Assembly: GCF_009914755.1 (NCBI RefSeq)
Contig: NC_060937.1
DNA length: 64,000 nt
Strand: one strand, 5' to 3'
Source: the human T2T-CHM13v2.0 reference genome, Homo sapiens
Below the pieces are notes generated by a model that was not told the origin of the DNA, ran no database searches, and saw nothing but the letters and a program-made list of their open reading frames with translations. Positions 1-6,944 of the stretch are shown in pieces. Made by a program: the position numbers and the translations under genes. The number at the start of each line of letters is the position of its first letter. Position 1 is the stretch's first letter.

Positions 1-850
1 GAGGACACAGAGCTCAGGGACAGCTTGGGGACTAGAGGTGCAGATGTGATCATCCCACCAGAAAGCACATGGGGTGGGAAATAGACCAAGGACTATCTAG
101 ATGGTGGACATGAAAATACTTGGTCCAAACACATACTTGAAAGCCCTTAACTAGACCAGGGGTAGTTGAGAACAATACCAATATTGTTACAGTTTCAACT
201 GTAGACTAAAATATTTTCACTGTCTATCTAATGTCTATCTAAATTCTAACAGCTCTATCTTAGGTACTATGTGAGGAATAATGGGCTGTTACTAGTTACT
301 AGAAGAGAATGTCATTGCTGTGTCTATTTGTGCAATTAAAGTTCAAAACACAGTGTTCTTTTTTACAGTAAAATAATCTGCATGCATGAATGCAGGCCTT
401 GCCTCTGGCCCAGCTGTGTCACTAAGGATAGAAACGCTGGGTATGTGATGATGGCTAAAGTAGCACAGTTGACAATCTATCATCTAGATATAGGTTATTA
501 CTTAAGTAGACTGAATCTGATTATAAATCAGGTTTCATGCATTCCCTATGTGCCAGGTTTCTTGATACAGAGAACATTTGTAGGGAAAACATTTAATTAA
601 GACATGGCTTTCCATAAAATGTGCTAGCCTATCACGCCATTTCTTCCTTTTTAATATTTGAGGGGTTGCCTCTCTCAGCTTTGGCGCCCTCCTCCTCTGT
701 ACAGGGTAGCTTCTTCCTTCTCTTTTCCTTCTTGCTTATTGAACTCTCTGCTCCTTAAAACCACTCCACGTGTGTCCGTGTCCTTGTATCTAAGCTGGCA
801 TGAGGACCAAAAACCCTGGTGCTCCACCACTCATCGGAGCCACATCATTT

Positions 851-868
851 TGGTGCGTTGGCCGAGAA
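851..868 (+). other. Retroviral primer-binding site, tRNA-Gly(TCC) type
   Basis: TGGTGCGTTGGCCGAGAA matches 17/18 the complement of the tRNA-Gly(TCC) 3' end (TGGTGCGTTGGCCGGGAA); it follows the LTR-terminal CA at 846-847 after a 3-nt gap. Confidence 0.85.
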
Positions 869-1268
869 AGGAAATTCATTCATCAGACTGAGTCAAGGAA
901 ACTTATTTTAAACTATTTATGGCCTTTAATAATTGAGTAAGGTGTACTCCTATGAACAAAATTTGAAGCATGTTTATTTCTCTGCCTGGTTCCTCTAGAA
1001 TTTGGAAATTATCTGTCTGGAAGCTCTGAGTTTATCTTGGGACCTCAAGAGGAGAGGATCACCCAACTCACAGCAATCAAACTCCAAATGGTGCTATAAA
1101 CTGAACCACACATGGACACGTCAGTCTTCCGAGGACCCTTAGATCAACCCCAGGAGGAGCCCTAGCTGCTGTTCCCCATTCGACGCCCCTTTCCAGCAGG
1201 AAGTAGCCAGAAGACATCGTCGCCCAAACCTCTAACAGCAGTTAGTGCGGCATCTCCACAGGGGGGAA

Positions 1269-1815
1269 TGTTGTAGGAGTTATTGATAAATTATTTTAGG
1301 CAGATAGAGAGGAAAAGGGGTCCTTAGGAAGTTTTTGTTTTTTAAAGCACGTCTGGAAAAGTTTCTTGTAAAGCTCCAGCTCTTAAAGCCAGGCCAGTTA
1401 CCCGATATCCAAATGCCAGCCATTAGAAAGTGGGTCCACCCAAACATGGCGATTCCTGTGGACTTCTTGCCCTTTCCCCACATTCCTGGATACATGGACA
1501 CCCCGAAGTATCCCCACCTGTGTAGAAGATCATGGTGCCCTGCATTTGCATATTAAAAGGCTAGGGTGGGAGAGCCAGCTTTTCCTGCGGGCTACGTGAA
1601 TGACATGCCTAGTCAAACCAATCCCCTGAGCCTGTGCAAATCAGACACTGCCTCCTCCAGCCTCTGTATATATACCTAGCTGGTATCTGTGGCAGGTGGG
1701 GTTCCCTCTCTTGGCTTTGGAGCCCCCCTTCCTCTGTCTCTGTACAGGGGAGCTTCTTCCTTCTCCCTTCCCTCTTGCTTCTTCTTGCCTATTAAACTCT
1801 CTCTGCTCCTTAAAA
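1269..1815 (+). promoter_or_regulatory. ERV1 LTR U3-R with core promoter motifs
   Basis: Starts TG after the purine tract; octamer ATTTGCAT 1544-1551, CCAAT 1618-1622, TATATATA 1667-1674, poly(A) signal ATTAAA 1791-1796. Confidence 0.75.
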
Positions 1816-3227
1816 ATAAAAAAAACTATATTTGAAACATTTCTATAATTACATGACTGGTCGTTTATAACTAAATGACTGGAATTCTCAGAAGAGAAAG
1901 CCATTTATTCAGAGCCAAGCTATTCAGGTAAGTATGGCTATCCTGTTCTTTGAAGTGGTTCACTTCAACTCAACAAACTGCCAATATAAATATGACCTTG
2001 CTCTCTCCTTCCCAGCAGACAGGCCCAACTAACACACGTCCTTCTCCAATTTCCCACCTTAAAACAATTCCTGTATCTCACAGAATGGCAACTGTGGCCA
2101 CAAGAGAAAAATATATACACTTGTGGGCTTTTCTAAAGAAATATAGTTAGAGCTAACTGGTTTGGTGATTTTGTATGTATGTGATTGCTGAAGATGAAGG
2201 TTCAAAAAGGAGGAAATCAGGACCTGAGCCTGGAAGGATAATGAAGAATAGTTACTGGGGAAGAATCCTGGGCACACTGTTATGCTAGCCCTGCTCTAAT
2301 TAGATTTAAATGTTCTGCGAGTGTTAACATGAACTAAACCCTACACAGAAAATTTAAAAAAAAACAAAAAAAAACAATGTTTCAGGTAGTTCCACAAGTA
2401 AGAAAAACTGGATTTGGATTTTGTATATGGCCATAGTAAAAAAATTCCAAGAAAGCTTTGGTTTCTTTTTTAAAGCTGACAAAGATGTCCCCTTTGCCTT
2501 CAAGTCTTAATTTTAGAAGGGTGACGATTAAAATTGTATTTTCCAAGCACCCCTGGGAACCAGCTTGGAGCTGTTAACTCCAACCAAGGTGGATGGAGTT
2601 AACAAACACATTTCACTCTGGAAATCACCTAAATTAGAGGGAGAATGAATGGATCTTGCCAAAAGGACTCAAACAGGCAATAACTTTACAATTAAAAAGA
2701 GAAAAGTGTCAATAGCAATATAAGAAAGACAAAATTGCATCAGGACACATATTGCAAATATGAGCTCACAAAAGGAAGCAGGTAGTAGATCTTCACCTAT
2801 TTGTCCTACTGAGAGGGACAGAGAATATATAAAGAGTAGTTAAAGAGTGAGAATTTAATGTATTTTTCTCCTCATTTTACCTGAGAGACAAATGGGCTAA
2901 GAAAAGACGGTACAAGCCAGAACATTTTTGTTCTGACGGCTCTGCTCAAATTAGCGTGTTTCATAACCTTGAAGTACTAGGGTAATTATTCTGGCCTGAC
3001 TAATTTAAATTATAATATCAACAAGATTCCAAGACTGAGTCTTAAAACGGCAGGGTTTCCAAACTGCGGCTTTCCAGTCCTCTTCTTCCGAGTGACTGCA
3101 GACATACAGCTGGAGAGAAAGTGAGGAGAAAAATACCATGCAGGAGGACTTGACCTGCAGACAGCTGGCCTAGACGGGGCTCATCAGAGAGAACACCAGC
3201 CACTCCACTCCCAGAACCACGGTGGCT

Positions 3228-3410
3228 GTTTACAGAGCATTCACTGTGCACCAGACACTGTCCTAAGAGCACTGATCCATGGTCTCCTTAAAACACACCT
3301 TGAGACACCTATCTTCACAAGTAAGAAAACAGAAGCCAAGAGAGTCACACAACTCATAGGTTTGCTTTAACCCTGGCAGTCTGGTTCCTGAGCCCATGCT
3401 CTTAAAGCGC
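3228..3410 (-). mobile_element. MIR SINE fragment
   Basis: Reverse complement of MIR core and 3' end (gcattcactgtgcaccagacactgtcctaag ... ggcagtctggttcctgagcccatgctcttaa). Confidence 0.65.
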
Positions 3411-4658
3411 TATGATATATTGCCTCATGCCCCGAAATTCTGTCAAATACATTCTAAAAAGGTTTATATTTAAATATCAGCATCCTTGATGTGACAGAAC
3501 CTAAATATGTAGAAAATCTTGAGAGAAAGGTCTCATTATTTCCTGATGCCACCCATGAGCACTTGTACCCAACTTACACGGCTTCCGTTCTGTGGAGCAC
3601 ACTTTACAAGCAGTCACGACTGTGCCCATCTAGCTGGAAGTAGAGGGCAGAGATCAGTGGCTTCGTCTCACAGGGCCGTAGTCTGGTACTGCCAACGGTG
3701 GCTTGGCCCAGCTGTGACCGGGACACTCATGACCAGGACAGGCACTCATGTAACGACCAAGAGCCTCTTCCCATCAGGGCACAACAGTGCTCACAATGCT
3801 TGGTTGCTGCTGGAGTTCCTGTCTTGGCGTGATACTGGGAGGAAAAAGTGCCCAAGAGTTCTGTGCTTAGGGATGCTTTCTGGGTGGTCTCCAAGTGCCT
3901 GTGGTAACCCCTTCAAACAGTAGCCTTCACATATTTAAGGGGCTCCTAACTATGCATATTTCTACACTTTCGCCAAGAAAAAATCCTGTCAGCTCCAGGA
4001 TGAGTTCAAATATATATGTGTACAAAGCTGCAAGTTCATATCCTGTTATTTTGTAATACATAATGAACATATAATCCAACCAGACCTTCATTTAAAAATC
4101 AGCATACTCATGGCCTCACCTGTTTAACCCTTGAATGCCCTTTTGGATGTACAATTAATATAATTATTTGAAAACATGATTGAGAGCAATTGGTTGGCAG
4201 TTTGACTATACCTGTAAGCCAACCTTGCAAAGACGAAATCTCATTCTGGCTCCCTTTCCTAAGGCCCTAGGGTGAAATCGTTGGTGTATCATTTAATTTC
4301 ATAAATACAGGGGATTACCAGGCAATTAAAAAGTAGAATTATTTTAAAGCTTGGAAGAAGAAGAATAGGTACATCTTTTCTTTGAGTCTATTTTATATAT
4401 TGCTTGACACCAAGCAAAGGTGCCCAATAAAATGAAACTATGGCTGTTTGATCAATGGCTGAGTATGATCCAAATTTAATGAAACTCAAAGAATGAATGA
4501 ATGAAGAAACTATTAATTGAATATTTGTAAGAGTTTTTTCCATTCATTCATCCATTCTATCTGTGCCTAAATGCCTAATGTGAATTTCAGGAAGGCAAAA
4601 CAAACAAACAACCCCAAAAAAGAAAAAACATGTTATTTATTAGGAAGATGTTATATAT

Positions 4659-4874
4659 CAAGCTTGTCCAACTCATGGCCTGTGGGCTGCATGTGGCCCA
4701 GGATGACTCTGAATGTGCCCCAACACAAATTCATAAACTTTCTTAAAATACTATGAAGTTTTTTCTTGGTGATTTTTTTTAGCTCATCAGCTATTGTTAA
4801 TGTAGTTTATGTGTGGCCCAAGACAATTCTTCTTCCAATGTGGCCCAGGGAAGCCAAAAGATTAGAGATCCCTG
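4659..4874 (-). mobile_element. MER30 (hAT-Charlie MITE)
   Basis: Close to MER30 consensus over its full length (caagcttgtccaac ... gggaagccaaaagattagagatccctg); TA-rich flanks. Confidence 0.85.
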
Positions 4875-4902
4875 TATATATTATATATAAAAATTACTGA
4901 GT

Positions 4903-5204
4903 TTTTTTTTTTTTTTTCTTGAGACAGGGTGTCACTCTGTCACTCAGGCTGGAGTGCAGTGGTGCAATCTCGGCTCACTGAAGTCTTGAATTTCTGGGCT
5001 CAAGTGATCCTTCCACCTCCGCCTTCCTCAGCTGGGACTATAGGAATGCACCACCACGCCCAGCTAGTTTTTTTTTTTTTTGTAGGAATGGGGTTTCGCC
5101 ATGTTGCTCAGGCTGGTCTCGAACTCCTGAGCTCAAGTGACCCAGCTACCTCAGCCTCTGAAAGTGCCCCATGGGATTACAGGCGTGCGCCTCTGTGACT
5201 GGCT
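4903..5204 (-). mobile_element. Alu (AluJ-like)
   Basis: Poly-T then gagacagggtgtcactctgtc, dimeric structure with central T-rich linker. Confidence 0.95.
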
Positions 5205-5230
5205 GAGACTTTCTTCTGAAAACTATGATC

Positions 5231-5410
5231 CAGTGGACCTAAAAGTGGACTGACATCACTGGTGTGTCAACTGGGAGCCTGTTAGAAATGTGAATTCTTA
5301 ATCCCCCATCCGAGCCCTGCTGAATCAGAACCTGGGGATAGGCCCAGTGACCTGTGTTTTAATAAGCCTTCCCAGTGACTCTGCTGCATGCTCGCCTTTA
5401 AGCCCCATGG
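5231..5410. mobile_element. MER5A-like hAT MITE
   Basis: gggagcctgttagaaatg ... ctgctgaatcagaa ... ctgtgttttaataagccttcccagtgactctg resembles MER5A. Confidence 0.7.
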
Positions 5411-6242
5411 CTCAGATGGACCTGCGGAAACCTGTTAAGCCTGAAAATGAGATGTCGTTTCTCTCAACTGGCAACTATAACTTGAAAAATACTGAGCAAG
5501 AAAGATGTAGACGATTGTAATTTTCTACTTAACTAAAAAAGATTTCTCAGGTGAAATAGAAAACAATTGTTTCATGTAAAACTATAATTTATTTGGGACA
5601 CTGTTCAAAGTTATTGAGTACCAGCTAGCTGGAAAAGCACCTACAATGATCTAGTGGATTTGGCATGGATATGGCCTACAGATCTGTAGTGGGGACGGAG
5701 AAAGGGACGTGGTGTCAGTGTGAGCTGTGTGGAAGCTGGGGCTCTGCACTTGCTCAAGAAGTCTCCCAGACGGGAGGTGCCCTTTGGAGATGAAGGCAGT
5801 CCTTTTATTTAAAAAGTTAAAAAGCAGGGTATGTTTTGATTACTAGGAACATTCTACAGGACAATAATTTGTGTTGATCAATTATTATGAGAAAAGCTCA
5901 GAAACACACACCTAAGAAGCTTCTTTCATTCTGACTGTTCTGAGCCTGAGAAATAGAACCCAACCTCAGTCAGGCAGGAGCCCAGAGGGAGCCATTTCTC
6001 AAGGAAAACACGAAGTTGGTAGAGGACTGGTCATCTGTTGATAGGTCATGATTTCTGCCAAAGTGGGCGATTTTAGCAGAAAGGTGGATGGAGTTGCTTA
6101 GGTCTGACTCCCCATAGGCATGGACCTCTCCCATCATTAGTGTTCTGAGATAAATGCCTCTGCCTGCAGGCCAAGCTCCCTGTGCACGGCAGCAAGCAGA
6201 AACATGACTACTCCTGACTCCACTTCAGACTGAACGTCTGCT

Positions 6243-6365
6243 CATGCATTTATCAAAAGGAAATGTTTACTAAGCACTTGTGTGCTAAACACTGTGTACT
6301 GGAGACAGCAGGCACACAGATATGAGTGAGACATGATTTCTGTTCTGAGGAACTTCATGAGTTGG
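6243..6365 (-). mobile_element. L2 3' end fragment
   Basis: catgcatttatc ... gtttactaagcacttgtgtgctaaacactgtg, typical L2 tail. Confidence 0.55.
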
Positions 6366-6409
6366 GGAGAAAGCCATGGAAATACATAACTGTTCATACA
6401 GCACCAAGG

Positions 6410-6944
6410 TGTCAATGGGGTAGGATATTGCTTTTTTCCACCTAGCATCCATTTCCCTTCTGGTTAGGAGAATAATTTTGCTTTAGAGCAGTGGTTTAGA
6501 GGGTGATTTTGTCAGGGCATCTGGCAAGGTCTGATGACATTTTTGGTTGTCACACTGGAGGAGTGAACCACCATACTACACACAGGACAGGCCCCATAAA
6601 AAGAACTTATCTGGTCCCAAAACGTCAACAGTGTGCAGGCAGACACCCTGCGGTGGGCCAACAAATGAGGAAGCTCTCCCTGCCCCTGGCTCAGCCAGTG
6701 AGGGTGGCCAGATGTGTTCTTCCAGGATTGAGTCTTGAGCCGAATGCAGAAAGGTCTATGGCTGGCTGGAGCTGAGCCATCCCAGTACCAGCCCCATGAA
6801 GAACACACCCTCTCCTCTGCCAAGCCCCACCGAGCTGCTCTTCTGGAGCCCTGTTGTAACTTCTTCCTTTGAGTCTGTGGCCTCAAAAAAAAAAAAAATT
6901 GGTTTTCTGCTTTGATAAGCCAGAGTTGGTTCTATTTCTTTCAA
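6410..6944 (+). mobile_element. Old ERVL LTR (LTR33-like) interrupted by MER20
   Basis: cctagcatccatttcccttctggt start and taagccagagttggttctatttctttcaa end resemble LTR33. Confidence 0.5.
6489..6650 (+). mobile_element. MER20 (hAT-Charlie) fragment
   Basis: cagtggtt ... ggcaaggtctgatgacatttttggttgtcaca ... aagaacttatctggtcccaaaacgtcaacagtg. Confidence 0.75.

What the first reader, a model, noticed from the sequence alone, without database searches (positions are those of the whole stretch)
869..1268. Fossil four-exon splice pattern inside the ERV retrocopy
Seen: only ~400 bp separate PBS and PPT. From my recollection of MER4-group internal consensus, this consists of non-contiguous blocks joined at 890/891, 1014/1015 and 1073/1074. 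Block 891-1014 (agtcaagg...tttggaaattatct) is normally bounded by ttttcag and gtgagt, block 1015-1073 (...ttatcttgggacctcaagaggagagg...aactcacag) by aacag and gtattt, and block 1074 onward is the env-3'/PPT region. Inference: the copy records a multiply spliced, non-coding ERV transcript with two small internal exons, unexpected for a simple gammaretrovirus-like element and resembling ERV-derived lncRNAs.
Basis: partly seen in the sequence, partly recalled or inferred. Interest (0 to 1): 0.75.

Follow-up and report, generated by a model that had tools for sequence, protein, structure and literature searches.

The report
Retrocopy of a triply spliced ERV RNA
This stretch of human chromosome 13 is a dead DNA copy, pasted in by LINE-1 machinery, of an ancient endogenous-retrovirus RNA from which three introns had been spliced out, so it preserves a fossil record of how that virus-derived RNA was processed.

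Summary
Window 662-1815 reads R-U5-PBS-[400 nt]-PPT-U3-R-A tail. It lacks a 5' U3 and a 3' U5 and is flanked by an 8-bp direct repeat. That is the form of a LINE-1-made processed pseudogene of an ERV RNA.

The 400 nt between PBS and PPT consist of blocks joined at 890/891, 1014/1015 and 1073/1074. In 9-12 unspliced genomic copies of the same family these blocks lie about 4.6 kb, 245 nt and 1045 nt apart. Each is bounded there by canonical splice signals:
- ACTG|gtgagt
- ttttcag|AGTCAAGG
- ATCT|gtgagt or gtaagt
- ctaacag|GTCTGG
- CACAG|gtattt
- cctagaag|CAATC

Other retrocopies re-use the same sites in other combinations, including an acceptor 3 nt upstream of the last one. This is therefore alternative splicing, not deletion.

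The spliced RNA has no meaningful ORF. The four-exon form was found only here.

The kind is known (HERV-W, HERV-H and HML-2 rec-like retrocopies), so this is a new member. The family-wide picture is more notable: 24 of 30 related loci examined are R-to-R, A-tailed copies, much as in HERV-W. The MER4/MER83 label could not be tested.

The parts
654..661 (+). 5' target-site duplication ATATTTGA, preceded by TTTTTA
   Evidence: Identical 8-mer at 1828-1835. The target context TTTTT/AATATTTGA resembles the L1 TT/AAAA nick site.
662..763 (+). 5' R region: the start of the copied RNA, with no U3 upstream
   Evidence: Aligns to 1698-1815 of the 3' LTR. Both begin GGGGTT(G/C)CCTCTCT. No match to U3 lies upstream.
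764..847 (+). U5
   Evidence: Matches the U5 that follows R in loci with full LTRs (L019, L022, L027-L029).
851..868 (+). Primer-binding site, complementary to the 3' end of tRNA-Gly(TCC) in 17 of 18 positions
   Evidence: The 15-mer after TGG matches, with 1 mismatch, the 3' end of genes that ARAGORN calls tRNA-Gly(tcc). TGG pairs with the added CCA (established knowledge).
662..890 (+). Exon 1 (R-U5-PBS-leader), ending at splice donor SD1
   Evidence: In unspliced copies C17 and CXa the homologous CATCAGACTG is followed by gtgagtatggag.
891..1014 (+). Exon 2 (124 nt)
   Evidence: Bounded by ...ttttcag| and |gtgagt or gtaagt in 9 of 9 unspliced copies. It lies about 4.6 kb downstream of the leader.
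1015..1073 (+). Exon 3 (59 nt)
   Evidence: Bounded by ...ctaacag| or aatag| (12 of 12) and |gtattt (GT in 11 of 12) in unspliced copies, about 245 nt after exon 2.
1074..1815 (+). Exon 4: post-env segment with PPT (about 1256-1268), U3 (1269-1697, TATATATA at 1667), R (1698-1815, ATTAAA at 1791)
   Evidence: Preceded by ttgtttcttctcgcctagaag| in unspliced copies (AG in 11 of 12). The LTR start at 1269 comes from LTR-only hits.
1816..1825 (+). A-rich tail (ATAAAAAAAA) directly after R, with no U5
1828..1835 (+). 3' target-site duplication ATATTTGA
997..999 (+). AG|A: annotated start (999) of the last exon of predicted lncRNA LOC124906997, inside ERV exon 2
   Evidence: Hub annotation (exon 999-6913).

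Best explanation
Window 662-1815 is a LINE-1-mediated processed pseudogene (retrocopy) of a triply spliced, polyadenylated RNA of a class I (gammaretrovirus-like) ERV family. That family uses a tRNA-Gly primer site and keeps only the end of env as recognisable coding sequence.

Proposed sequence of events:
1. Transcription started at the U3/R border of a source element.
2. The spliceosome removed three introns: SD1 to SA2 (about 4.6 kb), SD2 to SA3 (about 245 nt) and SD3 to SA4 (about 1045 nt, essentially all of the env remnant).
3. The RNA was cleaved and polyadenylated about 19 nt after the ATTAAA in the 3' R.
4. L1 ORF2p nicked a TTTTT/AATA site, reverse-transcribed the RNA from its A tail and left an 8-bp target-site duplication.

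Shown here: the R-to-R architecture, the A tail, the duplication, the exact GT-AG junctions in relatives, and re-use of the same sites in other retrocopies.

Inferred: the L1 enzyme itself, the germline setting, an age of tens of millions of years, and that the RNA was non-coding when made.

The copy is now inert, except that a predicted host lncRNA exon starts inside it.
For: Architecture:
- The 5' end is at R, which aligns to 1698-1815 of the 3' LTR, with no U3 upstream.
- The 3' end is at R plus an A tail, with no U5.
- ATATTTGA flanks both sides.

Junctions:
- GT-AG with extended consensus and polypyrimidine tracts at all six sites in 9-12 unspliced copies (2 copies for SD1).

Independent re-use of the sites in other retrocopies:
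- SD1-SA2 also in L043.
- SD3-SA4 in L005, L048 and L049, using the AG 3 nt upstream (cctag|AAGCAATC), a tandem acceptor.
- SD1 joined directly to that acceptor in L003, L017 and L024.
- SD2 joined to a further conserved acceptor ccctttaag|GAATCAAGC in L043 and L049.

Family context:
- 24 of 30 loci end at R followed by A-rich sequence. 5 have U5 and 1 is undetermined.
- 4 of 12 long copies start at R, with flanking repeats sharing 8-13 identical bases (about 12-16 bp by eye).
- 7 of 12 are 5'-truncated at different points.

Env remnant:
- The only retroviral Pfam match was TLV_coat, profile positions 450-559, ending just upstream of SA4.
Against: - The TSD is only 8 bp perfect, short for L1. 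The next bases differ (TTA versus ACT).
- The 5' and 3' R of the copy are only 76% alike, with length differences. One RNA from one source element would be expected to have more similar R copies, unless the source had divergent LTRs or decay was heavy.
- SD1 was seen at the exact homologous position in only 2 copies. Three other copies (C9, C12a, CXb) have a different leader after the PBS. I read a GT(G/A)AGT there by eye but did not align it.
- No source element and no empty orthologous site could be examined.
- No RNA evidence was available that these splice sites are used.
Confidence: 0.92

Rival explanations
1. The three gaps are ordinary genomic deletions (replication slippage or microhomology-mediated) that arose in a retrocopy or provirus after insertion, not splicing.
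For: Each junction has 1-2 nt of shared sequence (G, GT, AG) between the two sides. Old ERV copies in this family do carry other internal deletions.
Against: All three gaps start at GT(G/A)AGT or GTATTT and end at a polypyrimidine tract plus AG in the unspliced copies. The same end-points recur in independent loci in different combinations, including a 3-nt alternative acceptor. The shared bases are those of the splice consensus itself.
Confidence: 0.02
2. A spliced viral RNA was packaged and copied by the retrovirus's own reverse transcriptase and integrase, as proposed for one HML-2 locus. It would then be a short provirus, not an L1 product.
For: PBS and PPT are both retained, so such an RNA could in principle be reverse-transcribed in a virion. 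PMC3590776 (passages) discusses such a case at 10q24.2.
Against: That route rebuilds full U3-R-U5 LTRs at both ends and gives a 4-6 bp duplication with no A tail (established retrovirology). Here the 5' U3 and the 3' U5 are absent, and an A tail follows R.
Confidence: 0.02
3. The splice pattern is real, but it reflects aberrant or cryptic splicing of one mutated or read-through source locus (transcriptional noise). It is not a regular property of the ERV family.
For: The exon 2/exon 3 junction was found only in the window (1 of 11 candidates). The four-exon RNA has no ORF.
Against: All six sites are conserved across 9-12 copies that are about 80-88% alike. Five of the six are used in other retrocopies. 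Exon 2 also appears as an internal exon in a retrocopy with a different LTR type (L044).
Confidence: 0.15

Closest known systems
HERV-W processed pseudogenes (Pavlicek et al. 2002, recalled and not held; criteria as restated in PMC5016936, passages read)
   Same: A 5' R-U5 without U3, a 3' U3-R without U5, a poly(A) tail, a TT/AAAA-like target and a short target-site duplication. Most members of the family are such copies.
   Different: A different ERV group. The primer site is tRNA-Gly(TCC)-like. The LTR is about 630 nt, against 780 nt for HERV-W. No gag/pro/pol was detectable in 100 translated fragments. The window copy is triply spliced, whereas HERV-W pseudogenes are mostly genome-length.
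Retrotransposed rec-like HERV-K(HML-2) mRNA at 2q32.1 (PMC3590776, passages read)
   Same: An L1-type retrocopy (A stretch, TSD) of a multiply spliced ERV mRNA whose junctions match the known viral splice sites.
   Different: HML-2 is betaretrovirus-like, and that splice pattern makes the accessory protein Rec; that copy keeps a 136-codon ORF. Here the element is gamma-like and the spliced RNA has no ORF above 46 codons.
HERV-W processed pseudogenes lacking the pre-gag region (PMC6995185, passages read)
   Same: Splicing of an ERV RNA is inferred from processed pseudogenes and from conserved GT/branch/AG signals in unspliced copies.
   Different: That case has one intron in the leader. Here three introns and two small internal exons lie within or before the env remnant, and several alternative isoforms are recorded.
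Multiply spliced non-coding HERV-H transcripts (PMC3253121, abstract and section 7 read)
   Same: A gamma-like, largely non-coding ERV that gives PBS-to-3'R RNAs, most of them multiply spliced.
   Different: Those are present-day cDNAs from cancer cells. Here the RNA is known only from its DNA fossil.

Membership tests
L1-mediated ERV processed pseudogene (criteria in PMC5016936) | 5' end is R-U5, with U3 missing | tested here: met
   662-763 aligns to R of the 3' LTR (1698-1815). Nothing upstream matches U3 1269-1697.
L1-mediated ERV processed pseudogene (criteria in PMC5016936) | 3' end is U3-R, with U5 missing | tested here: met
   R ends at 1815 and is followed by ATAAAAAAAA. There is no U5 match, unlike L019, L022 and L027-L029.
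L1-mediated ERV processed pseudogene (criteria in PMC5016936) | Poly(A) tail after the viral polyadenylation site | tested here: met
   ATTAAA at 1791; A-rich tail at 1816-1825. The tail is short and interrupted, as expected for an old copy.
L1-mediated ERV processed pseudogene (criteria in PMC5016936) | Target-site duplication of 5-15 bp and a TT/AAAA-like target | tested here: met
   ATATTTGA at 654-661 and 1828-1835. The upstream context is TTTTTA. The nick motif is only approximate (TT/AATA).
Retrocopy of a spliced RNA | Missing segments bounded by GT...AG in the unspliced parent sequence | tested here: met
   All three introns. Site counts were 9/9, 9/9, 12/12, 11/12, 11/12 and 2/2.
Class I (gammaretrovirus-like) ERV | Gamma-type Env TM domain; LTR-PBS-PPT layout | tested here: met
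   TLV_coat PF00429 matched at E = 3.6e-17, 1e-5 and 9.4e-5 in unspliced relatives just upstream of SA4. The window copy itself has this part spliced out. PBS and PPT are present in the window.
Class I (gammaretrovirus-like) ERV | gag, pro, pol genes | tested here: not met
   0 of 100 stop-free fragments of at least 33 aa from two long copies (CXb, C17) matched a gag/pro/pol family at E <= 0.05. The same held for 23 fragments of at least 60 aa from C9 and CXb. The family looks non-autonomous or too decayed.
   No repeat library is on hand. Rfam gave nothing. The papers read (PMC5753468, PMC4724089, PMC11905727) give no sequences or PBS type for these families.
ERV-derived lncRNA | Evidence that the locus or its source is transcribed as a stable spliced RNA today | not testable with these tools
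   The only evidence is the hub's predicted model LOC124906997, whose last exon starts at 999. No RNA-seq is on hand.

The most novel reading that the evidence does not exclude
This ERV family is a second, so far unremarked, HERV-W-like case. It is a non-autonomous gamma-like ERV with a tRNA-Gly primer site that spread in primate genomes mainly by LINE-1 copying of its RNAs.

Its retrocopies together preserve a fossil alternative-splicing map: at least 4 donors, at least 6 acceptors and one tandem AG pair. That map hints at a regulated, complex-retrovirus-like expression programme, for example a small leader or accessory exon set upstream of env, rather than splicing noise.
Probability: 0.2. 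Interest if true: 0.65.

Novelty: new member of a known kind. Interest (0 to 1): 0.42.

Why it matters
Retrocopies of spliced ERV RNAs are among the few direct records of how extinct retroviruses processed their transcripts. Here six splice sites of an ERV that is probably tens of millions of years old can be read from DNA alone, and several isoforms can be told apart.

The family context bears on a statement in print that HERV-W is the sole HERV group mobilised by L1 (PMC5537654, abstract). In the sample examined here, 24 of 30 related loci have the processed-pseudogene form.

For genome annotation, such loci are likely to be split into several unrelated-looking repeat fragments. They can also donate splice sites to host lncRNAs, as the predicted exon start at 999 suggests.

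Tried and rejected
- Rfam scan of 1-3000 at gathering thresholds: 0 matches.
It was replaced by 100 stop-free fragments.
- First PBS pattern, which included the TGG: it found only the window, because tRNA genes do not encode CCA. The 15-mer without TGG then found the tRNA-Gly(TCC) genes.
- Coding potential of the spliced RNA: no sense-strand ORF above 46 codons. Stops in exon 2 are shared by the window, L043 and L049. I rejected an accessory-protein reading for the four-exon form. An ATG-led frame that runs from exon 2 across the SD2-to-extra-acceptor junction in L043 and L049 stays open for about 45 codons only and was not pursued.
- The 45-nt piece L044 586-629 has no significant match in the 12 long copies, so its origin is unknown.
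- Literature on other L1-amplified HERV families or on MER4/MER83 retrocopies: nothing found beyond HERV-W, HERV-H and HML-2. Pavlicek et al. 2002 is not held. Supplements of PMC11905727 were searched for Gly and MER83 without a useful result.
- Family naming through PBS type in PMC4724089: no mention of Gly.

Full report
**1. What is in the window.**

Reading 1-2400 with the repeat scan shows that 662-760 repeats 1698-1815. The internal BLAST gives 76% identity over the whole stretch. The repeat scan gives an 85% core plus an exact 17-mer.

The element has these parts:
- Both repeat copies begin GGGGTT(G/C)CCTCTCT.
- The 3' copy is preceded by 429 nt of U3 (1269-1697) with TATATATA at 1667.
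- The 3' copy carries ATTAAA at 1791 and ends at 1815, followed by ATAAAAAAAA.
- The 5' copy has no U3 in front of it.
- The 5' copy is followed by U5 (to 847), a primer-binding site at 851-868, 400 nt, and a purine tract (AGGGGGGAA) that ends at 1268.
- ATATTTGA flanks the whole element at 654-661 and 1828-1835. The upstream flank reads TTTTTA before it.

This R-U5...U3-R-A(n)-TSD form is the definition of an L1-made ERV processed pseudogene, as restated in PMC5016936 (passages read).

The PBS was tested against the genome. The 15 nt after TGG match the 3' end of genes that ARAGORN calls tRNA-Gly(tcc), with one mismatch. These genes include the chromosome 1 tandem array.

**2. The three junctions.**

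A genome search with 662-1815 (40 of 1807 first-look candidates scored) returned many loci that align only from window 1072 to the end. It also returned separate small hits for 890-1016 and 1015/1022-1073.

I extended twelve such copies by 10 kb upstream and laid them out as natural contiguous stretches. The layout is the same in all that hold the parts:
- the leader;
- about 4.6 kb;
- the 124-nt block;
- about 245 nt;
- the 59-nt block;
- about 1045 nt (about 730-1080 nt across copies);
- the block that starts at window 1074.

| Site | Flanking sequence in unspliced copies | Count |
|---|---|---|
| SD1 | CATCAGACTG\|gtgagtatgg | 2 of 2 copies whose leader aligns to the end |
| SA2 | tgctgatccttgttttgtttttcag\|AGTCAAGG | AG in 9 of 9 |
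| SD2 | ATCT\|gtgagt or gtaagt | GT in 9 of 9 |
| SA3 | cactttctaacag\|GTCTGG | AG in 12 of 12 |
| SD3 | CTCACAG\|gtatttgagg | GT in 11 of 12 |
| SA4 | ttgtttcttctcgcctagaag\|CAATCAAAC | AG in 11 of 12 |

**3. Independent re-use of the sites.**

Other retrocopies use the same donors and acceptors in other combinations:
- L003 (chr16), L017 (chr13:35.6 Mb) and L024 (chr10) join SD1 directly to an AG 3 nt upstream of SA4: CAGACTG|AAGCAATC. All three start at R and end in A-rich tails.
- L005 (chr1:225.7 Mb) joins exon 3 to that same upstream AG. It is 5'-truncated inside intron 2 and ends in a long A tail.
- Junction-centred 60-mers give lower bounds, because few candidates pass the first look.
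  - The exon 3/exon 4 junction is in 4 loci of 11 candidates: the window, L005, L048 and L049.
  - The exon 1/exon 2 junction is in 2 of 7: the window and L043.
  - The exon 2/exon 3 junction is only in the window, 1 of 11.
- L043 (chr1:152.7 Mb) and L049 (chr5:39.9 Mb) splice SD2 to a further acceptor, gtgtgtttccctttaag|GAATCAAGC. This acceptor is conserved in 10 of the long copies.
- L044 (chr14) has a different LTR type. It carries exon 2 joined to another small exon that is bounded in the long copies by ttttag| and |gtaacg. An unplaced 45-nt piece follows, then exon 4.

Mix-and-match use of fixed sites, including a tandem AG pair, is the signature of alternative splicing. It is not what repeated deletion would give.

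**4. What kind of ERV.**

Stop-free fragments of at least 33 aa from two long copies were scanned against Pfam. 4 of the 100 fragments (5 matches) hit a retroviral family, and all lay at the C-terminal end of a gamma-type Env:
- TLV_coat profile positions 450-559 of 560, with the best E-value 3.6e-17;
- one weak GP41 match.

None matched gag, pro or pol. A first set of 23 longer fragments gave the same result.

The Env match ends a few codons before SA4. Exon 4 is therefore the post-env untranslated segment plus U3-R, and intron 3 removes the whole recognisable env remnant.

The family looks non-autonomous.

**5. Family-wide mobilisation by L1.**

Of the 30 loci returned (the window included):
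- 24 end at R followed by A-rich sequence or an A-derived microsatellite;
- 5 continue into U5;
- 1 lacks the R end.

Of the 12 long copies:
- 4 start at R and have flanking direct repeats sharing 8-13 identical bases (about 12-16 bp by eye) that begin in A-rich sequence;
- 7 are 5'-truncated at different points;
- 1 (on chrX) has two full LTRs.

The sample is biased. The loci are the best matches to a query that is itself a retrocopy. Even so, the pattern is that of HERV-W, which a review calls the sole HERV group mobilised by L1 (PMC5537654, abstract). Six literature searches found no description of another such family. PMC3590776 (passages) notes retrotransposed HERV-H and HERV-W elements and one HML-2 rec-like copy.

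**6. Function.**

The window copy has no sense-strand ORF above 46 codons. Stops in exon 2 are shared with L043 and L049, so they probably predate the copies. From the only ATG that reads through exon 2, the frame stops four codons into exon 3 in the window. I therefore read the four-exon RNA as non-coding.

The copy is inert today. The one visible exception is that the predicted lncRNA LOC124906997 begins its last exon at 999, right after ttcctctag inside ERV exon 2 (hub annotation).

Pairwise identity to relatives is 78-88%. This suggests an age of tens of millions of years. That is an inference, since no outgroup genomes were on hand.

**7. Verdict.**

The locus is a clean new example of a known kind: an L1 retrocopy of a spliced ERV RNA. 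The four-exon isoform was seen only here. Wider interest lies in the family-level picture, which needs a proper census with repeat annotation and primate alignments.

Noticed in passing
L001-L030 (loci); long copies on chr9, chr17, chr12, chrX (L031-L034 with L010, L008, L013, L016): Most copies of this ERV family are R-to-R, A-tailed, often 5'-truncated retrocopies: 24 of 30 loci examined. The four full-length ones have flanking direct repeats sharing 8-13 identical bases (about 12-16 bp by eye). This is HERV-W-like amplification by L1 in a different family.
   Followed up: partly
L003, L005, L017, L024, L048, L049 against window 1071-1076: A tandem acceptor (cctAG|AAG|CAATC). The window used the downstream AG and six other retrocopies used the AG 3 nt upstream. 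This is a NAGNAG-type choice preserved in DNA.
   Followed up: yes
L043 (chr1:152,740,700-152,743,700) and L049 (chr5:39,904,300-39,905,800): Retrocopies of other isoforms. A roughly 130-nt intron runs from SD2 to a further conserved acceptor (ccctttaag|GAATCAAGC). In L043 the rest of the env remnant is retained, and in L049 intron 3 is removed as well.
   Followed up: partly
L044 (chr14:70,865,600-70,867,100): A multi-exon retrocopy with a different LTR type. It shares exon 2 and exon 4 but carries another small exon (bounded by ttttag| and |gtaacg in long copies) and a 45-nt piece of unknown origin.
   Followed up: partly
window 997-999: The annotated last exon of predicted lncRNA LOC124906997 starts at 999, just after a polypyrimidine tract and AG inside ERV exon 2. 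The retrocopy seems to supply a host splice acceptor.
   Followed up: no
window 662-763 against 1698-1815: The two R copies of the retrocopy are only 76% alike and differ in length (99 versus 118 aligned nt), more than the rest of the element would suggest. The source may have had LTRs of different subtypes.
   Followed up: no
L046 (chr1:160,584,590-160,584,740) and neighbours: The PBS search lit up a tandem array of 21 tRNA-Gly(TCC)-type matches spaced about 7.4 kb apart on chromosome 1 (160.58-160.73 Mb). This is the likely source of the primer tRNA.
   Followed up: partly
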